From Candidatus Giovannonibacteria bacterium RIFCSPLOWO2_02_FULL_45_28 (GTDB taxonomy: Bacteria; Patescibacteriota; Minisyncoccia; UBA11713; 2-01-FULL-45-33), in assembly GCA_001780725.1 (NCBI GenBank), contig MFIM01000009.1:656-64655 (forward strand): a DNA stretch of 64,000 nucleotides. Direction: 5' to 3'. Position numbers and translations under genes: made by a program. The notes under the pieces were generated by a model. The model searched no databases, was not told the DNA's origin, and saw only the letters and a list, made by a program, of their open reading frames with translations. This document shows, one piece after another, positions 3,294 through 30,530 of the stretch (positions are counted from its first letter, which is position 1; the number at the start of each line of letters is the position of its first letter).

Positions 3294-3863
3294 TTATGTT
3301 AAGCTGAAATATTGTTTTAGATGCAATTCATTGTCAATTTGATGGGCGAGTATTGTTCGGACATACGGACGCAGATTGAAAAACTCAATTACAAAATCAA
3401 CTTCACTACCGCATTCAAAAGGATGGACAAAAACGCTTTTTTGTAGTCTATAAAAACCCATGTTTTTTAATGCTTTTGCTAAGGCATCCCGCGCTTTTTT
3501 ATGGCGCTCTGGAATGTCAAACAATATTATGCGCCATTTTTTATCCCATTTTTTCATTTCTGGCACCCTGATTGTGTCTATGTTGTAAGTTGTGGCCCTT
3601 TTGCGTCCTTGTTCTGTCAAAACGATGGTCGTAGTATCGTCTTTGTTTTCTTTAATATCAACAAGGCGCGATCTATACAAATTTCTTATTGTGCGTCTGA
3701 GAGTGTGCTGATTGATTTTCTGCCAATCTTTCTTTATTGTTTCTATGGTGCGCCAATATTGTTTTGGTGATCGAGCAAATCCTAAAACAACCCCTCCCAA
3801 CAACAGCAGCAAAACTTTTTGAGCAGTTGGCCCGAGCCTTTTCTCTAAATATTTTTTTCTCAT
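3294..3863 (-). CDS. PaaX-like putative transcriptional regulator (Cas2-fold C-terminal domain) with N-terminal hydrophobic segment
   Basis: WRIILFDIPERHKKARDALAKALKNMGFYRLQKSVFVHP resembles the PaaX/Cas2-like fold. The family assignment is from memory only. Confidence 0.4.
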   Translation of the reverse strand: MRKKYLEKRLGPTAQKVLLLLLGGVVLGFARSPKQYWRTIETIKKDWQKINQHTLRRTIRNLYRSRLVDIKENKDDTTTIVLTEQGRKRATTYNIDTIRVPEMKKWDKKWRIILFDIPERHKKARDALAKALKNMGFYRLQKSVFVHPFECGSEVDFVIEFFNLRPYVRTILAHQIDNELHLKQYFSLT

Positions 3864-13682: not shown

Positions 13683-13710
13683 AGCGCCCGATTAGGGCGC
13701 TGTTTCGTTG
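13683..13710 (+). terminator. intrinsic terminator candidate
   Basis: AGCGCCC-GATT-AGGGCGCT stem followed by GTTTCGTTG. Confidence 0.45.
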
Positions 13711-13748: not shown

Positions 13749-13775
13749 TTAGCAGTCTTGTATTGAGAGTGCTAA
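13749..13775 (+). promoter_or_regulatory. CIRCE operator (HrcA binding site)
   Basis: TTAGCAGTC-N9-GAGTGCTAA against the consensus TTAGCACTC-N9-GAGTGCTAA: one mismatch. Confidence 0.8.
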
Positions 13776-13803: not shown

Positions 13804-14541
13804 ATGCCACTTTTAGACAGCCGAAAAGAGGATATTTTGGGGTTTGTTGTGCGGGATTTTGTCCGGACGGCTTTTCCGGTTTCTTCCAATGCCGTGTTCG
13901 GAGGTTTGAGGCTGGAGGTAAGTCCGGCTACCATCCGTAATATTATGCTGGAGCTGGACGATATGGGATATCTTTACCAGCCGCACACTTCCGCGGGCCG
14001 CGCCCCCACGGAAAAAGGGTATCGCTACTTTACTCTGCATTTAATGTCTGTAAAACAGCCGGAAGTTGAAATGAGGACGCGGCTGGATAAAATTGTTGAG
14101 AATATGGAGCGGGAAACAGACTCGGCTTTTGAGGAGCTTTCGCGCGCGCTGTCCAGCCATCTTAAACTTTTTTCCGGAATTGGCCTTTTGGATGAAGATG
14201 AAAAAATTTTTGGGAAAGGGCTTTCCGAAGTTTTCCGCGCTCCGGAGTTCGCAGAGCCAAACTTGGCCGCGGAATTCGCAGATTTTGCGGAAAACATTGA
14301 AGAAAATTTGCTGGATTTAAACAGGCGCGGAGTAACAGAGCATGATCTTGAGCCGACTTTCCATGTTAGCGGTTTCGGGATGGCAAGCGTGTTTTTTGAC
14401 GATGACGAGTTTGGCAGATGCGCTGTTTTTTCAGCAGGACCCAAAAGGATGAATTACGAAAAATCTGCTTCCGTATTAAAATACACGGCAAAAGATATTA
14501 AGAGTAAAAATAAAAAAAATGCCAGACGAAGAAATAATTGA
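13804..14541 (+). CDS. hrcA: heat-inducible transcriptional repressor HrcA (short, 245 aa)
   Basis: N-terminal wHTH ..SPATIRNIMLELDDMGYLYQPHTSAGRAPTEKGYRYF. Confidence 0.8.
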   Translation: MPLLDSRKEDILGFVVRDFVRTAFPVSSNAVFGGLRLEVSPATIRNIMLELDDMGYLYQPHTSAGRAPTEKGYRYFTLHLMSVKQPEVEMRTRLDKIVENMERETDSAFEELSRALSSHLKLFSGIGLLDEDEKIFGKGLSEVFRAPEFAEPNLAAEFADFAENIEENLLDLNRRGVTEHDLEPTFHVSGFGMASVFFDDDEFGRCAVFSAGPKRMNYEKSASVLKYTAKDIKSKNKKNARRRNN

Positions 14542-15028
14542 AAACGAAGTTGTAGAAGAGGAGGGGCTGGGCGATAAATTAAAAAAGTTGCGCGAAGAAT
14601 TAAAACTTTGCCACAAAGAAAAATCGGAGTATCTAGCGGGCTGGCAGAGGGCGAAGGCGGATTTTATAAACGCAAGAAAAGACGAAGAAAAAGCCAGAGC
14701 AGAATTCGCCAAATTTGCCGCGGAGAAAGTTTTAGGGGAGATGCTGGCTGTAGCTGATTCGCTGCTTGCCCGCCACAGCTTTAGCGAAGGCGGGGAGGAT
14801 CCGATTTACAATCAATTGCTTGATATTTTTAAAAAAGAAGGCGTTGAGCCGATTGAGGCGCTCGGTAAAGGGTTTGATCCGCTTTATCATGAAGCTTTAG
14901 AACAGGTTGAGGTTCCCCAAAAAGAAAAAGACGGGACGGTTTTGGAAGAGATGCAAAAAGGGTACACTATTTATAACAGGGTTCTGCGGCCAGCTAAAGT
15001 AAAAATCGGAATTTATAAAAATATATGA
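14519..15028 (+). CDS. grpE: nucleotide exchange factor GrpE
   Basis: RAKADFINARKD.., VLGEMLAVADSL, and a C-terminal beta domain. Confidence 0.85.
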   Translation: MPDEEIIENEVVEEEGLGDKLKKLREELKLCHKEKSEYLAGWQRAKADFINARKDEEKARAEFAKFAAEKVLGEMLAVADSLLARHSFSEGGEDPIYNQLLDIFKKEGVEPIEALGKGFDPLYHEALEQVEVPQKEKDGTVLEEMQKGYTIYNRVLRPAKVKIGIYKNI

Positions 15029-16095
15029 ATAAAGAGGAAACAACTAAATATATTCCGGAAGAATCAGAATCAAAAATAAATGTTGATTTTGACGCGCTTA
15101 TTGCGGAATGCGACAGATTGCGAAGCGTGCCCAAAATGTCGCCGAAAGAAATTCATTATGTCTTGAAACAATATGAAAAAATCAATTCCGAATCAGTGGA
15201 CACCGCATTTGAAGCGGACAAAAAATTACTTTCTTTAGTGGTGGATAGGATAGCAAAAGAATGCGGAGAGACAGGATCTTTGTCTATTTATGATAACGCA
15301 ATTCAGCTTATAACCAAAAAATCCATTAAGAAGTTTGAAGAAATATTTGCGGAAAGCCCTCTTACGTCTGCAGTGTTTTTCCCTACTATGGGCGCCATTG
15401 GCTTCAGAGGGGCGGATGCCATGCGGTTACACAATCCAGGCTATTTGATTTACTCATTGGCGTCTTTTGGATCAGTCACGCAATTACAAAGTTTGCATCA
15501 CGAGTTTATTCATAGCAAACAAAGTTTTTTGCCCGAAGAAGAGGCGCTAATAGCTTTAAAAAATGACTTAAACGAATCGTGTTGGCATATTGCATATTAT
15601 GTGTCTCGAGCTTTATTGGGCTTAGGCCAAACAAAAGCCCAAAGAGGAATCGGGCGATTGAAAGAAAAGATTGCCGCAAAAGAAGAATTGGCGGAAACAC
15701 ATGCGTATATAGGAACTGCCAGACGAGATAATTTACAACTTTCATTTTCTGATTTTTTGAGAGACATGCAAACCGGCTACAGCTTCGGCGGGGAACCGAA
15801 AGAGATTGACCGGCTCATTTTAGCCAATTTTGAAGTAAAACGCCTTTATGCGCTTGGTCTTTCTGATGAGGAAATCGGCTTGCTGGTTCGCGACGCCAAG
15901 TGGGATTATAAAAAGAGGCGCTACGATATTTTAGATGAAAAAGCCGCGCAGATTATGAAAGAAAAGGATTTGGACGAGGAAGATGTTGACAACTTGGTTT
16001 TGGCAGACGACCTAAGGCGGCAAATTTTTATAAACAAAACGCAACTTATCGCGCAAGATGAATTAAAAAAGGCCGTAAAAAACTTGCAAAAATAA
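15025..16095 (+). CDS. hypothetical HExxH-motif protein (putative zinc metallopeptidase) embedded in the chaperone operon
   Basis: ATGA overlap with the grpE stop. LHHEFIHSKQ is an HExxH motif, with further Glu residues downstream. Confidence 0.5.
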   Translation: MNKEETTKYIPEESESKINVDFDALIAECDRLRSVPKMSPKEIHYVLKQYEKINSESVDTAFEADKKLLSLVVDRIAKECGETGSLSIYDNAIQLITKKSIKKFEEIFAESPLTSAVFFPTMGAIGFRGADAMRLHNPGYLIYSLASFGSVTQLQSLHHEFIHSKQSFLPEEEALIALKNDLNESCWHIAYYVSRALLGLGQTKAQRGIGRLKEKIAAKEELAETHAYIGTARRDNLQLSFSDFLRDMQTGYSFGGEPKEIDRLILANFEVKRLYALGLSDEEIGLLVRDAKWDYKKRRYDILDEKAAQIMKEKDLDEEDVDNLVLADDLRRQIFINKTQLIAQDELKKAVKNLQK

Positions 16096-16131: not shown

Positions 16132-18012
16132 ATGAGTAAAATTTTAGGAATAGACTTGGGGACGACTAACTCGGCGATGGCGATTGTTGAGGGGGGTGTC
16201 CCGAAAATATTGGAAAACGCGGAAGGGGCGCGGACAACGCCTTCAATTGTGGCGTTTTCAAAATCGGGAGAAAGATTGGTCGGGCTTTTGGCGAAAAGGC
16301 AGGCGGTGACCAATCCCAGAAACACTATTTTTTCGGTAAAACGCTTAATCGGAAGGAAAGCGAGCGATGCGGAAGTGAAACGCGACAAAACCTTGCTCCC
16401 TTATGAGATTAAGGAATCCGCTAACGGCGGGGTGGAGGTTAAGATCAATGAAAAGTGGTACCGGCCGGAAGAGGTCTCCGCAATGATTTTGGCTAAATTA
16501 AAAGCGGACGCGGAGGCGAAACTCGGAGAAAAAATTGAAGATGCAATAATTACCGTGCCGGCTTATTTTGACGATTCGCAGAGACAAGCGACTAAGGCGG
16601 CCGGCGAGATTGCCGGGTTTAAAGTAAAAAGAATTTTAAACGAGCCGACCGCGGCTGCGCTGGCTTACGGCCTCAATAAAAAGCGGAACGAAAAAATCGT
16701 GGTTTATGATTTTGGCGGCGGGACTTTTGATCTGTCTGTTTTGGAGATCGGTGACGATACAATAGAAGTCCGCGCAACCGGCGGAGACACTCATTTGGGC
16801 GGGGATGATTTTGACCAAAAAATAATCCAGCATATCGCCGCGGAATTTAAAAAAGAATCGGGCATTGACGTAACTAAAGATGTTTTGGCGCTTCAGAGGC
16901 TGAAAGAGGCCGCGGAAAAAGCCAAGCATGAACTTTCAACCGCAATTGAGACGGAAATAAACATCCCATTTATCACATCCGACGCCTCCGGGCCGGTGCA
17001 TCTTCAGCAGAAAATGGCGAGAGCCAAACTGGAGGATTTGGTGCGCGACTTTTTGGATAAATCTTTTGAGATTACAAAAAATGTCGTTCGGGAAGCGAAA
17101 TTTGAACTAAAAGACATTGATGAAATTGTGTTGGTGGGCGGACAGACAAGGATGCCCGCAATTCAGGAAGGAATTAAAAAACTTTTTGGCAAGGAAGCTA
17201 ACCTTTCCATTAACCCGGACGAAGTTGTTGCTGTTGGAGCGGCGGTTCAGGGTGGAATTTTGCAAGGGGACGTAAAAGACGTTTTGCTTTTGGACGTGAC
17301 CCCTCTTTCTTTGGGAATTGAAACCTTGGGAGGCGTTATGACAAAAATTATTGAAAAAAATACGACGGTGCCGGTTGCGCGTTCGCAGGTTTTTTCAACT
17401 GCGGCTGACAACCAAACCTCGGTTGAAATCCATGTTTTGCAGGGCGAGCGCGAGATGGCTGGCGACAACAAAACTCTGGGACGGTTCATTTTGGACGGAA
17501 TCCCGCCTTCTCCGAGGGGTATGCCGCAAGTTGAGGTATCTTTTGACATTGACGCCAACGGCATTTTATCGGTGAAAGCTAAGGACAAAGCCACAAACAA
17601 AGAGCAGTCCATCCGCATAGAGGCCTCCACGGGGCTTTCTAAAGACGAAATTGAAAAAATGAAGAGAGACGCCGAGGCGCATGCGGACGAAGATCGCCAG
17701 AAAAAAGAGCTGATTGAATCCAAAAATCGCGCGGATGCGCTGGTTTATACAGCGGAGAAATCTTTGCGAGACGCGGGGGACAAAGTTGAACAGGCGATAA
17801 AAGACGAAGTTAATCAAAAAATAGAAGCGCTTAAAAAAGCGAAAGAGGGAAACGATATTTCCGAAATCCGCAACGCCGAAACCGCTTTGGCACAATCCCT
17901 CTCAAAGATAGGAGAAGCGATGTATAAGCAGGGCGGCGCGCAAGGCGAAAAACCCGAAGAAAAAGGCCCGGACATTAAAGATGCCGATTTTAAGGAGGAG
18001 GGCGATAAGTAA
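16132..18012 (+). CDS. dnaK: molecular chaperone DnaK (Hsp70)
   Basis: [25 protein letters not shown], and a C-terminal EEVD-like acidic tail. Confidence 0.95.
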
Positions 18013-18015
18013 ATT

Positions 18016-18588
18016 ATGAAACGAGTTTTTATAGTTCATGGTTGGGATGGCTATCCGGAAGAGGGATGGTTTCCGTGGCTTAAAAAAGAACTTGAGTCGA
18101 AAAACTTTAAGGTTTTTGTTCCGCAACTTCCTGATTCCGCAAATCCGAGGATTGAGAAATGGGTTCCAGCTCTTGCGGGCACCGTTGGTGTTGCGGATGA
18201 GCAGACCTGTTTTGTTGGGCATAGTATTGGTTGCCAAACCATCGCTCGATATCTAGAAACCTTGTCTGAAGGACAAAAAGTTGGGGGCGCGGTGTTTGTT
18301 GCTGGTTTTTTTGAGCGAGTGAATCTTGAAGAAGATTTTAATGTGCAAGAAACTAGCCGCTTATGGCTTAAAGCGCCGCTTGATTTTAGTAAAGTGAAAT
18401 CGCATTTACCAAAAAGTATTGCCATTTTTTCTGATAATGATCCGTATGTTCCGCTCGATAACCAAAATGATTTTCGAGAAAAATTAGGTTCGGAGATTAT
18501 TGTAGAGAAATCAAAGGGTCATTTTAGCGGCCCGAGCGACGGCATTACTAAATTGCCAGTTGTTTTAGAATCTGTTTTGAAATTATGA
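18016..18588 (+). CDS. alpha/beta hydrolase, YdeN/RBBP9-like serine hydrolase
   Basis: GHSIG nucleophile elbow (CFVGHSIGC); 190 aa. Wedged between dnaK and dnaJ with 3-4-nt junctions. Confidence 0.55.
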
Positions 18589-19661
18589 AAGACTATTACG
18601 AAATTTTGGGGGTGGGGAAAAATGCGTCTCAAGACGAGATTAAGCGCGCGTACAGAAAGTTGGCGCATGAGCATCACCCCGATAAAAAAGGGGGGGATGA
18701 GAAAAAGTTTAAGGAGATAAACGAGGCTTATCAGATTTTGGGAGACGAGCAAAAACGCCAGCAGTATGATAGGTTTGGCAAGACTTTTGCCGGAGGCGGC
18801 CAATCCGGCTTTTCCGGATTTGAAGGCTTTGACTTTTCAAATTTTGGAGGTGGGTTTAACGCGGACCTAGGCGATATCTTCGAAGATTTTCTTGGCGGGC
18901 TTGGCGGATTTTCCGCCCGAGGCGGACAAGGGCGCAGGCGCGAACGGGGCAGCGATATTTCTTTGGGTATTGACGCATCGTTTCAGGAATCCGTTTTCGG
19001 CGGGAGACGGAGCGTTGTTATTGAAAAAACTTCAAAATGTGAGATCTGCGGCGGCAACGGCGCAGAACCCGGAACTAATCTGAAAAAGTGTGCGACTTGC
19101 CAAGGCACAGGTACCGTCCGCGAGATGCGGCGTTCGCTTTTCGGAGCGTTTACAGCGCTTTCGGAATGTTCTCATTGCCGCGGCAGGGGAGAATCACCGG
19201 AACGCGCATGCAAACATTGCCGCGGAGCCGGGATTTTAAGAAAATCCCAAGGCGTGGAAATTATGATTCCTCCGGGCATTCGCGACGGAGAAGCAATCAA
19301 ACTTACAGGTTTAGGAGAAGAAGTTCAAAGAGGACAAGCAGGAGATCTTTATGTTAGGATTCACGTTTTACCGCATCATATTTTCAGGCGCGAGGGGTAC
19401 GATATTTTGATGGATTTGCATCTGCCGCTTTCAAAAATGCTTTTGGGCGGAGAAGAAATGATAGAAACACTGGAAGGAAAAATTTCGGTGCGTATTCCGG
19501 AGCTTTCCAAAGTGGGAGATTTTCTGCGTCTTCGCGGAAAGGGGGTTCCAAGGGGCAGGGGAAGAGGGGATTTGTTAATAAGGCTTTTTCCCAAGCTTCC
19601 CAAAAAGCTCACGCCGCGGGCAAAAGAAATACTTTCGGATTTGGAGAAAGAGGGGTTATAA
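18585..19661 (+). CDS. dnaJ: co-chaperone DnaJ
   Basis: J-domain with HPD (HHPDKK), a G/F region, and four CxxCxGxG zinc-finger repeats. Confidence 0.9.
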
Positions 19662-20502: not shown

Positions 20503-22869
20503 ATGGTGAATTTTCGGATAAAATTAGCTTTGTTTTTAGTGATTTTCCTCTCTCTCTCTCTCGCACAGGCCAATGCCGCTTTTGACTTTTCTTTTGCCAA
20601 TCTTTCTCAATCCAACTCTCTTGCCTCCGTATGGGAAAATGTAAAAGACGACATACAAGACTCATGGGAAAACATAAAAGAGTGGCTACTTCCCGCTCCG
20701 CCGCCCCCATCAACCCCGCCAGGCGAGCAAAAACCGTCGCCCTCATCAACGCGCGGGAAAACATCCAATGTTGAATCCCCAAAAACATCGGATGTTGAGG
20801 AGCGCGTTTTCCCGGGCAACGATTTCGAAGAAGAAAGCAAGACAATCACATCTGAACAACCTCTCGCAACCGAGCGCGCTCCGGAACGCGTCACAGTTTC
20901 CACTAACGGAATTACAGAAGCTCGTCTTTTGCAGTCGCTCAATGCCTTGCGCGAAGAGCTATTGGATCGCTTCTCGCAGATTATCGTCTCCGCGCCCGCG
21001 CCGCTTACATTTCATGGTCCTGCGGAAACAACGCCTGCTTCCGTCGCTATGCTGGCTTTATCCCAAAGAATCAACAACCTATCCGGCAGTTCCAATTCCC
21101 CGCTTACCATCTCCGGAGCAACTTTCTCCGGCTCCAATACTTTTAGCCTTACGGATGCCGATGTTCCCGACGGCATCACTGCTTCCAGCTATCTCCCGCT
21201 TTCCGGAGGCACGCTCTCGGGCGCGCTTACCGGAACCAATCTTACTCTCTCCGGCAACCTCACCGTTTCCGGAGCTCAAACTCTTTCCGGCGCCATCACT
21301 ATTCCCTATCTCACCGCGACCTCCACCACCCAGCCCTCCACTTTCGCCTACAACGTCGGCATCGGGACGACGAGTCCGTGGGGGTTATTATCAGTACATC
21401 CCGACGGGATTACCGGTCCCGCTTTTGTGGTCGGTTCATCAACTGCAACAAACTTTATCGTAACTAACGGCGGCAACGTCGGGATTGGGACGACGAGTCC
21501 GACGGCGCTATTGCATGTGGCGCATACCACCGATATTAGTAAAACCTTAATTAACGCAACTTATCTCGGTTTCTCCAAATTTAAGTTGAGATACGATGAG
21601 GGTTCTAATTACCACATTTTGGAAATCTTTAACAGCACGCTTGCTGGGTTTGGTATTACTCTTAATGCAACAGATTGGACCAGTCGCACTGTGACAATAC
21701 GGGGACATATTGATGCTTCGATACCGCTGACCGTTCAATCTAATGACAACACTCCATCACTTGACATTTTCCAGGTGCGCAGGAGTGGCACTCTAATAGA
21801 CCTTGTGGTTAATTCAAGCGGCTTTGTAGGCATAGGCACATCCACCCCAAATTGGCTCCTGCAGGCGGCTGGAACGCGTCCGTTTTTTACCCTCTCCGAC
21901 ACCGCGGCGGGAACGGATTTGAAACATTGGTATTTGTCATCTCAAGGCGGCAATCTGTATGTGGGCACCACCACCGATGCCTATGCCACCACCACCAATT
22001 ATCAAGCATTGACTATATTAAATAACGGCAACGTCGGCATCGGGACGACGAGTCCATGGCGCACCTTTTCGGTGGCGGGGACGGTGGGATTCTCTTCTAC
22101 CCTAACTTCTTCTGCAACGGGAGATTACCTTTGCATAAATACCGACACATACGAGGTCTCAAGAGGCGCGGGAAGCATCTGCACCACTTCTTCCGAAAGA
22201 TACAAAGAGAATTTTGAAGAACTCGCCTACGGACTGGATTCCGTACTCAAACTTCACCCAATCTCATTTGAATACAAGCCCGAGCTTAATATCGGCCCAG
22301 GCCGCAGAATCGGTTTCACTGCCGAGGAAGTGATTAATGTCATTCCCGAAGCGGTTGTGCTTGATAAAGAAGGTCTGCCCAGCGGGGTTGAATACGAAAA
22401 ACTAACCGCGGTTTTGGCAAAAGCCATACAGGAGCTTTACCAAAAAATTATCTCGCTTTTTGATAAAGACAAGGAGCAAGATCAGCGCATCGCTGAGCTT
22501 GAAGCGCGTATAAATGCTCTGGAGGGAGGAGCGCCGGCGGCGGATACCTCCGCCTCCGCCGAGGCTTCGGCGGACAAGGAACCCCCGACCATCACCATCA
22601 ACGGCAACAATCCCGCGAGAATAGAAGTCGGCGCGGCATACAGCGACCTTGGCGCAACCGTCACTGATAATGTCAATGACAATCTCGGTATTGAAATGTT
22701 TGTCGGAGAAACGCCCATGGAGCAGGCATATATTGATACGAGCGAACCGAATACTTACCACATCACTTACCGCGCAACCGATCAGGCGGGTAATGTCGGC
22801 GAGGCGGTGCGTACGGTGGAGGTGTATAGCCAAGCGACAACAACTTTATCCGAAATCCCGTCTCCGTAA
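20503..22869 (+). CDS. secreted tail-fibre-like surface protein with peptidase S74 intramolecular-chaperone domain and C-terminal Ig-like (DUF5011-like) domain
   Basis: Signal peptide MVNFRIKLALFLVIFLSLSLAQANA; Pro-rich linker; three-to-four GNVGIGTTSP repeats; SERYKENFEEL..LHPISFEYKP..GFTAEEVINVIPEAV..AIQELYQKI matches the intramolecular-chaperone domain; PPTITINGNNPARIEVGAAYSDLGATVTDNV..HITYRATDQAGN is Ig-like. Confidence 0.7.
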   Translation: MVNFRIKLALFLVIFLSLSLAQANAAFDFSFANLSQSNSLASVWENVKDDIQDSWENIKEWLLPAPPPPSTPPGEQKPSPSSTRGKTSNVESPKTSDVEERVFPGNDFEEESKTITSEQPLATERAPERVTVSTNGITEARLLQSLNALREELLDRFSQIIVSAPAPLTFHGPAETTPASVAMLALSQRINNLSGSSNSPLTISGATFSGSNTFSLTDADVPDGITASSYLPLSGGTLSGALTGTNLTLSGNLTVSGAQTLSGAITIPYLTATSTTQPSTFAYNVGIGTTSPWGLLSVHPDGITGPAFVVGSSTATNFIVTNGGNVGIGTTSPTALLHVAHTTDISKTLINATYLGFSKFKLRYDEGSNYHILEIFNSTLAGFGITLNATDWTSRTVTIRGHIDASIPLTVQSNDNTPSLDIFQVRRSGTLIDLVVNSSGFVGIGTSTPNWLLQAAGTRPFFTLSDTAAGTDLKHWYLSSQGGNLYVGTTTDAYATTTNYQALTILNNGNVGIGTTSPWRTFSVAGTVGFSSTLTSSATGDYLCINTDTYEVSRGAGSICTTSSERYKENFEELAYGLDSVLKLHPISFEYKPELNIGPGRRIGFTAEEVINVIPEAVVLDKEGLPSGVEYEKLTAVLAKAIQELYQKIISLFDKDKEQDQRIAELEARINALEGGAPAADTSASAEASADKEPPTITINGNNPARIEVGAAYSDLGATVTDNVNDNLGIEMFVGETPMEQAYIDTSEPNTYHITYRATDQAGNVGEAVRTVEVYSQATTTLSEIPSP
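20548..20562 (+). repeat. (CT)7 dinucleotide tract inside the signal-peptide coding region (encodes LSLSLS)
   Basis: cctctctctctctctc read directly. Confidence 0.8.
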
Positions 22870-29960: not shown

Positions 29961-30530
29961 TTACGAGCCGCTACTGATTTTCTGTTGCGCTTTAAATTCT
30001 TCAAGCTTTTTTATTTTCAGCTTCAAATACCAATTAAATTCAATGCCGTAGATTTTCGGGATGCGCCCATAAAAACTAATGCCGCTATCTGCGCTTATCA
30101 TTTCGGCGGCGAAACGATCGGCCAGAAATTCATCGCTGCTGTTTGCTAGTTGGTGCCAGATTTCGTGTGCCAGCGCGAACTTCAATTCACTCTCTGTAAA
30201 ATTGTCTATTAGCTTCTTACTTAAATAAATTGATTTATGAAAAGGGAATGTCCATGCTGCAATTTTTTCAATTTTTTCAAAAAAGCTAACCCAAACAACT
30301 ATTGGCCGGATCGTTGCGCACTCTTTTTCGTTATAGCGATGCTTAATTTGAGAACAAATTGAGGCAGTTTCTATTTTGAATTTATTTTCGTAATCCTTTG
30401 TTTGCTGGTAATGAAATGGCAATAGATAAGCGTCCGGCCTCAATCCTAAAATGTAGCTCGCAACATCCGCCGTCAAAATAATATAGACTACCAGTATGCC
30501 CACCAAAAGAACTCTCCAGAAATTTTTCAA
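29961..30530 (-). CDS. membrane-anchored HExxH zinc metallopeptidase-like protein
   Basis: N-terminal TM; ALAHEIWHQL is an HExxH motif. Confidence 0.4.
   Translation of the reverse strand: MKNFWRVLLVGILVVYIILTADVASYILGLRPDAYLLPFHYQQTKDYENKFKIETASICSQIKHRYNEKECATIRPIVVWVSFFEKIEKIAAWTFPFHKSIYLSKKLIDNFTESELKFALAHEIWHQLANSSDEFLADRFAAEMISADSGISFYGRIPKIYGIEFNWYLKLKIKKLEEFKAQQKISSGS

What the first reader, a model, noticed from the sequence alone, without database searches (positions are those of the whole stretch)
15025..16095. Uncharacterised HExxH protein translationally coupled inside the hrcA-grpE-dnaK-dnaJ heat-shock operon
A 356-aa ORF starts with an ATGA overlap on the grpE stop and ends 36 nt before dnaK. 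It carries LHHEFIHSKQ (HExxH) with downstream acidic residues and no TM segment. A putative zinc metallopeptidase co-expressed under CIRCE/HrcA control between the nucleotide-exchange factor and Hsp70 would be a new chaperone-protease coupling.
Basis: partly seen in the sequence, partly recalled or inferred. Interest (0 to 1): 0.7.

Follow-up and report, generated by a model that had tools for sequence, protein, structure and literature searches.

The report
Orphan HExxH protein in dnaK operon
A real, conserved gene wedged between grpE and dnaK in a Candidatus Giovannonibacteria genome belongs to an unnamed protein family, found so far only in Parcubacteria/Patescibacteria, that carries the sequence signature of a zinc protease but matches no known family or solved fold. 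Its link to the chaperone system is limited to one clade and is untested.

Summary
A 356-aa ORF (15025-16095, +) starts in an ATGA overlap with the grpE stop and ends 36 nt before dnaK. It sits in hrcA-grpE-X-dnaK-(Ser hydrolase)-dnaJ, behind a one-mismatch CIRCE.

HExxH is kept in 77 of 79 near-full-length relatives from about 100 clusters. E224 (97%, in an ExxA motif 65 residues after H159) and Y252 (91%) are kept too. That is a gluzincin-type signature.

The grpE-X-dnaK position recurs in three lineages down to 38% identity, with the same overlapping start, and these form one clade. About eight other lineages place the gene in unrelated contexts.

Best reading: a new putative cytoplasmic zinc hydrolase family, heat-shock co-regulated in one Parcubacteria clade. 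Interest is moderate.

The parts
13683..13701 (+). Intrinsic-terminator-like hairpin that ends the upstream transcription unit
   Evidence: 7-bp stem with 6 G-C pairs followed by a T-rich tail
13749..13775 (+). CIRCE operator (HrcA binding site), TTAGCAGTC-N9-GAGTGCTAA
   Evidence: One mismatch to the consensus, with no match in 100 shuffles. The same element precedes hrcA in the related locus L013.
13804..14541 (+). hrcA, a short 245-aa form
   Evidence: TIGR00331 E=1.2e-40, below the curated cut-off; PF01628 E=1.7e-4
14519..15028 (+). grpE
   Evidence: PF01025 E=2e-34
15025..16095 (+). ORF X: a 356-aa member of an unnamed family, seen so far only in Parcubacteria/Patescibacteria, with a gluzincin-type HExxH...ExxA...Y signature
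   Evidence: AlphaFold model pLDDT 91.7, pTM 0.88.
15370..15405 (+). Predicted beta-hairpin (residues 116-127, consensus A.Y.P....I), the candidate substrate-binding edge strand
   Evidence: DSSP strands at 116-119 and 124-127. I125 is 89% conserved.
15499..15513 (+). HExxH (H159-E160-F-I-H163) on predicted helix 152-166, followed by Q166
   Evidence: H159 99%, E160 99%, H163 100%, Q166 86% conserved in 79 sequences. Helix.
15694..15714 (+). E224-T-H-A227-Y-I-G230 (ExxA.xG) on predicted helix 201-235; E224 is the candidate third metal ligand
   Evidence: E224 97% and A227 89% conserved. G230 is invariant in the 7-sequence alignment. Same spacing as ExxAD in the E. coli M48 proteins.
15778..15780 (+). 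Y252, the candidate transition-state-stabilising tyrosine
   Evidence: 91% conserved
16132..18012 (+). dnaK
   Evidence: PF00012 E=3.8e-250
18016..18588 (+). Second inserted gene: an alpha/beta serine hydrolase (PF06821). It starts 3 nt after the dnaK stop and overlaps the dnaJ start (ATGA).
   Evidence: PF06821 E=4.8e-25; coordinates
18585..19661 (+). dnaJ
   Evidence: PF00226, PF00684 and PF01556

Best explanation
ORF X is a bona fide gene of a Candidatus Giovannonibacteria (Parcubacteria, CPR) genome.

It most likely encodes a soluble cytoplasmic mononuclear zinc hydrolase with gluzincin-type chemistry, probably a peptidase. In this inferred scheme H159 and H163 on one helix and E224 on the following long helix hold the metal. 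E160 is the general base that activates water. Y252 (possibly with Q166 or H226) stabilises the tetrahedral intermediate. The 116-127 beta-hairpin offers an edge strand for an extended peptide.

In the clade that includes this genome the gene was inserted once between grpE and dnaK. There it is translated by stop/start overlap with grpE and transcribed from the CIRCE/HrcA-controlled promoter, so its product should rise together with GrpE, DnaK and DnaJ under proteotoxic stress.

Shown here: the gene, the family, the motif conservation, the operon and CIRCE, and the clade-limited synteny. Inferred: metal binding, hydrolase activity, peptide substrates, heat induction, and any functional link with DnaK.
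For: Family: 102 representative clusters at E<=1e-3.

Motif: HExxHxxQ is present in essentially all near-full-length members. In 79 aligned sequences the most conserved positions of the whole protein are H163 (100%), H159 (99%), E160 (99%), E224 (97%), W293 (94%) and Y252 (91%). This exceeds the hydrophobic core positions, as expected for a catalytic site. E224 sits in an ExxA motif, the gluzincin hallmark as described in PMC6414381.

Model: AlphaFold is confident (pLDDT 91.7, pTM 0.88). It places HExxH and E224 on consecutive long helices, with a beta-hairpin just upstream.

Location in the cell: no signal peptide or TM segment.

Operon: CIRCE; ATGA overlap with grpE and a 36-nt gap to dnaK; no convincing internal terminator.

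Synteny: grpE-X-dnaK recurs with an overlapping start in L004 (60% identity), in L013 (38% identity, with hrcA and CIRCE) and as X-dnaK in L010.

Organism: cluster members are named Candidatus Giovannonibacteria or Parcubacteria, and the genome-collection hits are Parcubacteria or Patescibacteria MAGs.
Against: No homology to any peptidase family was detected by Pfam (single protein and all 79 members), NCBIfam, PHROGs, PADLOC, PDB sequence or profile searches.

Only a two-stranded hairpin is predicted, where zincins normally have a sheet of 3 or more strands.

Two family members lack a canonical motif: P0017 has HHKYIH and P0053 has EEVTH.

Outside one clade the gene sits next to unrelated genes: dnaX, serS, a methyltransferase, DJ-1/PfpI, HD_3, or rpmE/prfA. 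A functional tie to DnaK is therefore not a family property.
Confidence: 0.55

Rival explanations
1. X is a highly divergent member of the M48/M56 'minigluzincin' lineage (HtpX, Ste24, BepA, BlaR1-like) that lost recognisable sequence similarity. Some relatives may still insert a hydrophobic hairpin into the membrane between the HExxH helix and the Glu helix, as HtpX does. This is a more specific version of the best explanation.
For: The order of elements is collinear: hairpin 'A.Y.P....I', then a helix, then HExxH, then a variable insert, then 'ExxA[Y/D]xG'. E224 lies 65 residues after the first His, compared with +59 to +83 in E. coli HtpX, YcaL, LoiP and BepA. BepA also reads HExxHxxQ. In 23 of 87 family members the only strongly hydrophobic segment (KD19>=1.6) lies 15-100 residues after HExxH, in or near this variable insert, which is where the HtpX sequence has its own hydrophobic stretches. 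hhalign against the window's own small M48-like ORF aligns the hairpin and HExxH together.
Confidence: 0.2
2. X binds a metal through the conserved His and Glu residues but is not a peptidase. It could be another hydrolase, a mono- or binuclear helical-bundle metalloenzyme using ExxH-type ligands, or a metal-dependent regulator or adaptor.
For: The fold is almost all-alpha with long helical hairpins, and its only PDB neighbours are helical bundles. Extra conserved polar residues cluster near the motif: H158 in many members, Q166, and H/Q at 226. Fusions to a nucleotidyltransferase domain (P0027) and to TPR repeats (P0032) do not point specifically to proteolysis.
Against: The combination HExxH + ExxA + Tyr with these spacings is the classic gluzincin peptidase signature. 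There is no second ExxH motif as in diiron carboxylate proteins. No match to any non-peptidase family was found either.
Confidence: 0.2
3. The operon position is a historical accident of a compact CPR genome. X is a housekeeping enzyme with no functional relationship to GrpE, DnaK or DnaJ, so there is no 'chaperone-protease coupling'.
For: Only 3 independent lineages carry grpE-X-dnaK, and they form a single clade in an NJ tree, consistent with one insertion inherited vertically. About 8 other lineages have unrelated neighbours. The same operon also contains an unrelated alpha/beta serine hydrolase between dnaK and dnaJ, which shows that foreign genes lodge here.
Against: The arrangement has been kept, including the stop/start overlap with grpE and the short spacer to dnaK, while the protein diverged to 38% identity. 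Two other lineages place the gene directly after a DJ-1/PfpI gene, a family I recall as including stress-linked proteins such as Hsp31.
Confidence: 0.5
4. The conserved HExxH is structural or binding-related, and the protein is not a metalloprotein at all.
For: No homology or fold evidence ties it to metalloenzymes.
Against: His, Glu, His, Glu and Tyr are the most conserved residues of the family, more so than core hydrophobics. This is hard to explain without a catalytic or metal site.
Confidence: 0.07

Closest known systems
[quoted passage not shown]
   Same: HExxH on a helix. A conserved Glu in an ExxA motif on a downstream helix, 61 residues after the second His. A conserved Tyr further downstream. 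Beta-strands immediately upstream of the active-site helix.
   Different: No detectable sequence or structural similarity to any gluzincin family. Only a two-stranded hairpin is predicted instead of a sheet of 3 or more strands. The rest of the protein is a large all-alpha scaffold (356 aa) with a conserved C-terminal 'W...EDVDNLV' region that matched no Pfam family here.
Peptidase family M48 (HtpX, LoiP, YcaL, BepA, Ste24) and the M48/M56 minigluzincins
   Same: Collinear motifs with the same spacing (HExxH, then about 60-80 residues, then ExxA[D/Y]xG). A hydrophobic insert between the two motifs in part of the family. HtpX is itself a heat-shock protein, so a stress-regulated zincin has precedent (HtpX regulation from established knowledge).
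Canonical HrcA/CIRCE-controlled hrcA-grpE-dnaK-dnaJ operons of Firmicutes, Chlamydia and others
   Same: CIRCE inverted repeat, then hrcA, grpE, dnaK and dnaJ in the usual order.
   Different: Two extra hydrolase-like genes are interleaved: X between grpE and dnaK, and a PF06821 serine hydrolase between dnaK and dnaJ. HrcA is about 100 residues shorter than the TIGR00331 model. A limited literature search found no report of a gene between grpE and dnaK.

Membership tests
Gluzincins (zincin tribe) | HExxH motif located on an alpha-helix (the active-site helix) | tested here: met
   H159, E160 and H163 are 99-100% conserved in 79 sequences. They lie within predicted helix 152-166, where pLDDT is about 97.
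Gluzincins (zincin tribe) | Third metal ligand is a Glu on a downstream 'glutamate helix', typically in ExxA | tested here: met
   Met at sequence and secondary-structure level. E224 is 97% and A227 is 89% conserved, inside predicted helix 201-235. Motif definition from PMC6414381. Its role as a ligand is inferred.
Gluzincins (zincin tribe) | N-terminal subdomain with a mixed beta-sheet (3 or more strands, including a substrate-binding edge strand) and a backing helix | tested here: inconclusive
   Only a two-stranded hairpin (116-119 and 124-127) is predicted upstream of the active-site helix.
Gluzincins (zincin tribe) | Recognisable structural similarity to solved zincin catalytic domains | tested here: not met
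Gluzincins (zincin tribe) | The three ligands converge on one metal site; zinc-dependent peptidase activity | not testable with these tools
   Model coordinates are not exposed to the scripting environment. This needs inspection of coordinates and biochemistry.
Metzincins | Extended motif HExxHxxGxxH/D plus a Met-turn | tested here: not met
   The sequence reads HEFIHSKQSFL. Family consensus is HExIHxxQ, with no Gly at +3 or His/Asp at +6 after the second His.
Peptidase M48 (PF01435) | Match to the family profile | tested here: not met
   No PF01435 hit for X or for any of 79 relatives at E<=0.01. As a comparison, a different small ORF of this window (29961..30530, -) does hit PF01435 at E=1.7e-4.
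Peptidase M48 (PF01435) | Profile-profile similarity to bona fide M48 proteins | tested here: not met
   hhalign of A5 and A2 against an alignment of E. coli HtpX, YcaL, LoiP and BepA gives probability 3.9% and 1.1%, with only the HExxH region aligned. The template profile is shallow (Neff 2.5), so this is a weak test.
Peptidase M48 (PF01435) | HExxH followed about 60-80 residues later by ExxAD | tested here: inconclusive
   X has E224-x-x-A-Y-x-G at +65, while the E. coli M48 proteins have ExxAD at +59 to +83. The Asp is replaced by Tyr or Phe.
HrcA/CIRCE-controlled dnaK operon | CIRCE inverted repeat upstream of hrcA-grpE-dnaK-dnaJ on one strand without internal terminators | tested here: met
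   CIRCE with one mismatch at 13749-13775. Gene identities. No convincing plus-strand terminator between 13804 and 19661. Co-transcription and heat induction were not tested.

The most novel reading that the evidence does not exclude
X founds a previously unrecognised family of zinc metallopeptidases with a new, almost all-alpha scaffold, known so far only from Parcubacteria/Patescibacteria. It would be either convergent on, or an extreme derivative of, the gluzincin active site. In the Giovannonibacteria clade it would act as a dedicated partner of the DnaK system. Under HrcA control and made in fixed ratio with GrpE, it would degrade clients that DnaK cannot refold, or cleave a regulator such as HrcA. 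This could substitute for quality-control proteases that may be scarce in reduced CPR genomes; the protease repertoire was not examined here.
Probability: 0.12. Interest if true: 0.8.

Novelty: new variant of a known kind. Interest (0 to 1): 0.5.

Why it matters
If the predicted site is catalytic, this is a new peptidase family. It has no Pfam, NCBIfam or PDB counterpart, and its confidently predicted fold has no solved relative. It is known so far only from the poorly understood Candidate Phyla Radiation, whose members have minimal proteostasis machinery.

Its fixed position between the nucleotide-exchange factor and Hsp70 in one clade offers a concrete, testable hypothesis for a chaperone-linked protease in organisms that cannot be cultured.

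If it is not catalytic, it is still a conserved CPR-specific protein family that deserves a name. The claim of a mechanistic chaperone-protease coupling currently rests on gene order in one clade and should not be over-read.

Tried and rejected
1. Pfam, NCBIfam, PHROGs and PADLOC scans of X and of up to 79 relatives gave only scattered noise hits.
2. PDB sequence searches were run with the single protein, the full-length profile and the core profile. The best hit was the botulinum neurotoxin E light chain at E=1.7, and the core profile found nothing.
4. hhalign against the window's own small M48-like ORF and against a four-paralogue E. coli M48 profile gave probabilities of 0.6-3.9%, so M48 homology is not demonstrated.
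5. The metzincin reading is rejected on the extended motif.
6. A DUF4157-type HExxHxxQQ domain was considered from memory. It does not appear among the Pfam families matched by the 79 members.
7. A phage or mobile-element origin is not supported. There was no tblastn hit in 50,697 phage records and no relative in IMG/VR, and GC content is only slightly below the neighbours.
8. A second homologous-protein search with the 79-sequence profile added only two usable proteins. The genome and metagenome scans returned few loci because only one conserved peptide pattern could be back-translated.
9. Literature searches for a gene between grpE and dnaK, or for HExxH proteins in CPR, found nothing relevant.
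10. Model coordinates could not be read, so the geometry of the putative metal site remains unchecked.

Full report
**Observation**

The ORF is exactly as described. It spans 15025..16095 on the plus strand and encodes 356 aa. Its ATG overlaps the grpE stop in the sequence atatATGAat. It ends 36 nt before dnaK at 16132.

The neighbours were identified with profiles.
- hrcA: 13804..14541. TIGR00331 E=1.2e-40 (below that model's curated cut-off) and PF01628.
- grpE: 14519..15028, PF01025 E=2e-34.
- dnaK: 16132..18012, PF00012 E=4e-250.
- dnaJ: 18585..19661, three DnaJ domains.

A CIRCE element with one mismatch lies at 13749-13775. None was found in 100 shuffles. It sits directly after a strong terminator-like hairpin at 13683-13701, so a new HrcA-controlled transcription unit plausibly begins there. 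No convincing plus-strand terminator interrupts the gene string.

LHHEFIHSKQ is at residues 157-166. The protein has no hydrophobic segment that could span a membrane; the maximum Kyte-Doolittle 19-residue mean is 1.19.

**Organism**

An identical protein is deposited as 'hypothetical protein' from Candidatus Giovannonibacteria and Parcubacteria group bacteria (KKT29592.1, KKT60012.1, KKU30130.1, OGF49712.1). These belong to the Patescibacteria/CPR. Identical copies also occur in two JGI metagenomes (L011, L012).

**Is the motif meaningful?**

HExxH alone is weak evidence. Five ORFs in this window carry it, including MnmA and peptide deformylase. The family comparison is what counts.

An exhaustive HMMER search of 1.84 billion representatives found 102 clusters at E<=1e-3. 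Essentially every near-full-length member keeps HExxHxxQ.

In an alignment of 79 near-full-length members with a mean column identity of 15%, the best-conserved positions of the whole protein are:
- H163: 100%
- H159: 99%
- E160: 99%
- E224: 97%
- W293: 94%
- Y252: 91%
- A227: 89%
- I125: 89%
- G149: 87%
- Q166: 86%

The two exceptions are P0017 (HHKYIH) and P0053 (EEVTH).

E224 lies in ExxA, 61 residues after the second His. According to the zincin classification summarised in PMC6414381, HExxH plus a downstream Glu three residues before a small 'Ser/Gly-turn' residue (usually Ala) is the gluzincin hallmark. E224 is the better ligand candidate.

**Structure**

AlphaFold2 with the 79-sequence alignment gives a confident single-domain model (pLDDT 91.7, pTM 0.88). 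It is almost entirely helical.
- The only strands are a hairpin at 116-119 and 124-127.
- HExxH lies in helix 152-166.
- E224 lies in the long helix 201-235.
- Y252 lies at the end of helix 241-252.

This order (strand(s), active-site helix, glutamate helix) is what a zincin would show, but the fold as a whole is not recognised.
- Foldseek against the PDB has no hit below E=0.1.

The AFDB library was unavailable and coordinates could not be read. The geometry of the putative metal site is therefore untested.

**Homology to known families**

None was found.
- Pfam, NCBIfam, PHROGs and PADLOC are empty for X. They show only scattered noise across 79 relatives.
- PDB sequence and profile searches are empty.

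A motif-level lead to M48/HtpX-type minimal gluzincins emerged.
- The family consensus is 'A.Y.P....I', then a helix, then 'LHHExIHxxQ', then a variable insert, then 'iLxE(T/A)(H/Q)A(Y/F)xG'.
- Real E. coli HtpX, YcaL, LoiP and BepA (fetched) show 'NAFA...V', then a helix, then HExxH, then ExxAD at +59 to +83. In X the Glu is at +65.
- BepA even reads HExxHxxQ.
- The insert between the two motifs varies from roughly 20 to 80 residues.
- In 23 of 87 members a stretch 15-100 residues after HExxH, in or near this insert, is the only strongly hydrophobic segment. The HtpX sequence has hydrophobic stretches in the equivalent position.

However, hhalign gives only 0.6% probability against the window's own small M48-like ORF. 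It gives 3.9% and 1.1% against the four-paralogue M48 profile. I therefore record M48 relationship as a hypothesis, not a finding.

**Genomic context across the family**

The grpE-X-dnaK arrangement recurs in three further loci.
- L004: X is 60% identical. The grpE C-terminus is upstream with the same ATGA overlap, and dnaK follows 24 nt downstream.
- L013: X is 38% identical. The full order is CIRCE-hrcA-grpE-X-dnaK, with an 8-nt stop/start overlap and a 33-nt spacer.
- L010: a near-duplicate of the L013 lineage, showing X-dnaK.

In an NJ tree these sequences form one clade. Every other lineage examined has different neighbours.
- After dnaX: L001 and L002.
- After serS: L005.
- After a class I methyltransferase: L003 and L015.
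- Between an HD_3 phosphohydrolase and a PaaX_M protein: L006 and L014.
- Between DJ-1/PfpI and GAPDH: L007, L017 and L016.
- Next to unannotated genes: L008.
- Before rpmE and prfA: L009.

There is one copy per locus. No relatives were found in phage or IMG/VR collections.

The simplest history is a single insertion between grpE and dnaK in the ancestor of one Parcubacteria clade. It has been retained, with its translational coupling, while the protein diverged to 38% identity. That retention is suggestive of selection for co-expression but does not prove a functional link. The same operon also hosts an unrelated PF06821 serine hydrolase between dnaK and dnaJ, which shows that this compact operon tolerates passengers.

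**Mechanism proposed**

I put about 55% on the following. X is a cytoplasmic mononuclear zinc hydrolase, probably a peptidase.
- H159, H163 and E224 are the metal ligands.
- E160 is the general base.
- Y252 stabilises the oxyanion.
- The hairpin provides the substrate-docking strand.

In this clade it would be produced from the HrcA/CIRCE promoter in step with GrpE.

The gene, the family, the conservation, the operon and the CIRCE are shown. Metal binding, catalysis, substrate class, heat induction and any interplay with DnaK are inferred.

Rivals:
- A divergent M48-like enzyme, which is a sub-case of the above (0.2).
- A metal-binding non-peptidase (0.2).
- No metal site at all (0.07).
- On the separate question of coupling, an incidental operon position (0.5).

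**Novelty and score**

The family has no name in any library searched, no literature and no structural neighbour. Its presumed chemistry is nevertheless that of a well-known enzyme class, and stress-regulated zincins such as HtpX and FtsH are established knowledge. I rate it a new variant of a known kind.

Interest is 0.5. It is a worthwhile target for structure and biochemistry and a neat CPR-specific operon variant. The headline 'new chaperone-protease coupling' is at present only a gene-order inference valid for one clade.

Noticed in passing
window 18016-18588 (+): A 190-aa alpha/beta serine hydrolase (PF06821, E=4.8e-25) is wedged between dnaK and dnaJ. It starts 3 nt after the dnaK stop, and its stop overlaps the dnaJ start (ATGA). 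This is a second non-chaperone hydrolase in the same heat-shock operon. In the related locus L013 the gene after dnaK is a different 348-aa ORF with no Pfam match.
   Followed up: partly
window 13804-14541 (+); L013 2643-3383: HrcA is only 245-246 aa, compared with the 338-position TIGR00331 model. It scores below the curated cut-offs (140 bits against a cut-off of 197). A region seems to be missing in these Parcubacteria HrcA proteins.
   Followed up: no
window 29961-30530 (-): A small 188-189-aa ORF carries AHEIWH with weak Pfam matches to Peptidase_M48 (E=1.7e-4) and SprT-like (E=1.2e-3). It is a separate minimal zincin candidate in the same genome, followed closely by an 'EFLAD' motif.
   Followed up: partly
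family members P0004, P0025, P0026, P0043, P0051 and others (23 of 87): A stretch 15-100 residues after HExxH, in or near the variable insert before the Glu helix, is strongly hydrophobic (KD19 up to 2.1) in about a quarter of the family. This suggests a membrane-dipping hairpin in those members. The window protein lacks it, and the model is least confident there (pLDDT 63-72 for residues 170-200).
   Followed up: partly
P0027 (704 aa), P0032 (579 aa): Longer relatives fuse the HExxH module to other domains. P0027 has an N-terminal nucleotidyltransferase-like domain (PF10706/PF14907). P0032 has C-terminal TPR repeats.
   Followed up: no
P0017, P0053: Two family members have altered motifs: HHKYIH (catalytic Glu replaced by Lys) and EEVTH (first His replaced by Glu). 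These may be inactive or variant-site paralogues.
   Followed up: no
L007 4304-4930 and L016 8-547: In two lineages the family gene immediately follows a DJ-1/PfpI family gene (E about 1e-39). From memory, DJ-1/PfpI includes stress-linked proteins such as Hsp31.
   Followed up: no
window 20503-22869 (+): A 788-aa protein with a signal-like N-terminus carries a Peptidase_S74 (endosialidase intramolecular chaperone) domain and a bacterial surface Ig-like domain. This looks like a tail-fibre-like surface protein.
   Followed up: no
window 3294-3863 (-); L006 6220-6789: A PaaX_M/Cas2-like domain protein occurs in the window, and another sits directly downstream of the X homologue in L006.
   Followed up: no
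P0001 compared with window 15025-16095: The 90%-identity cluster representative P0001 (340 aa, source 'SRC') equals the window protein minus 16 residues (YDNAIQLITKKSIKKF, residues 89-104). This is either a natural deletion variant or an assembly artefact.
   Followed up: no
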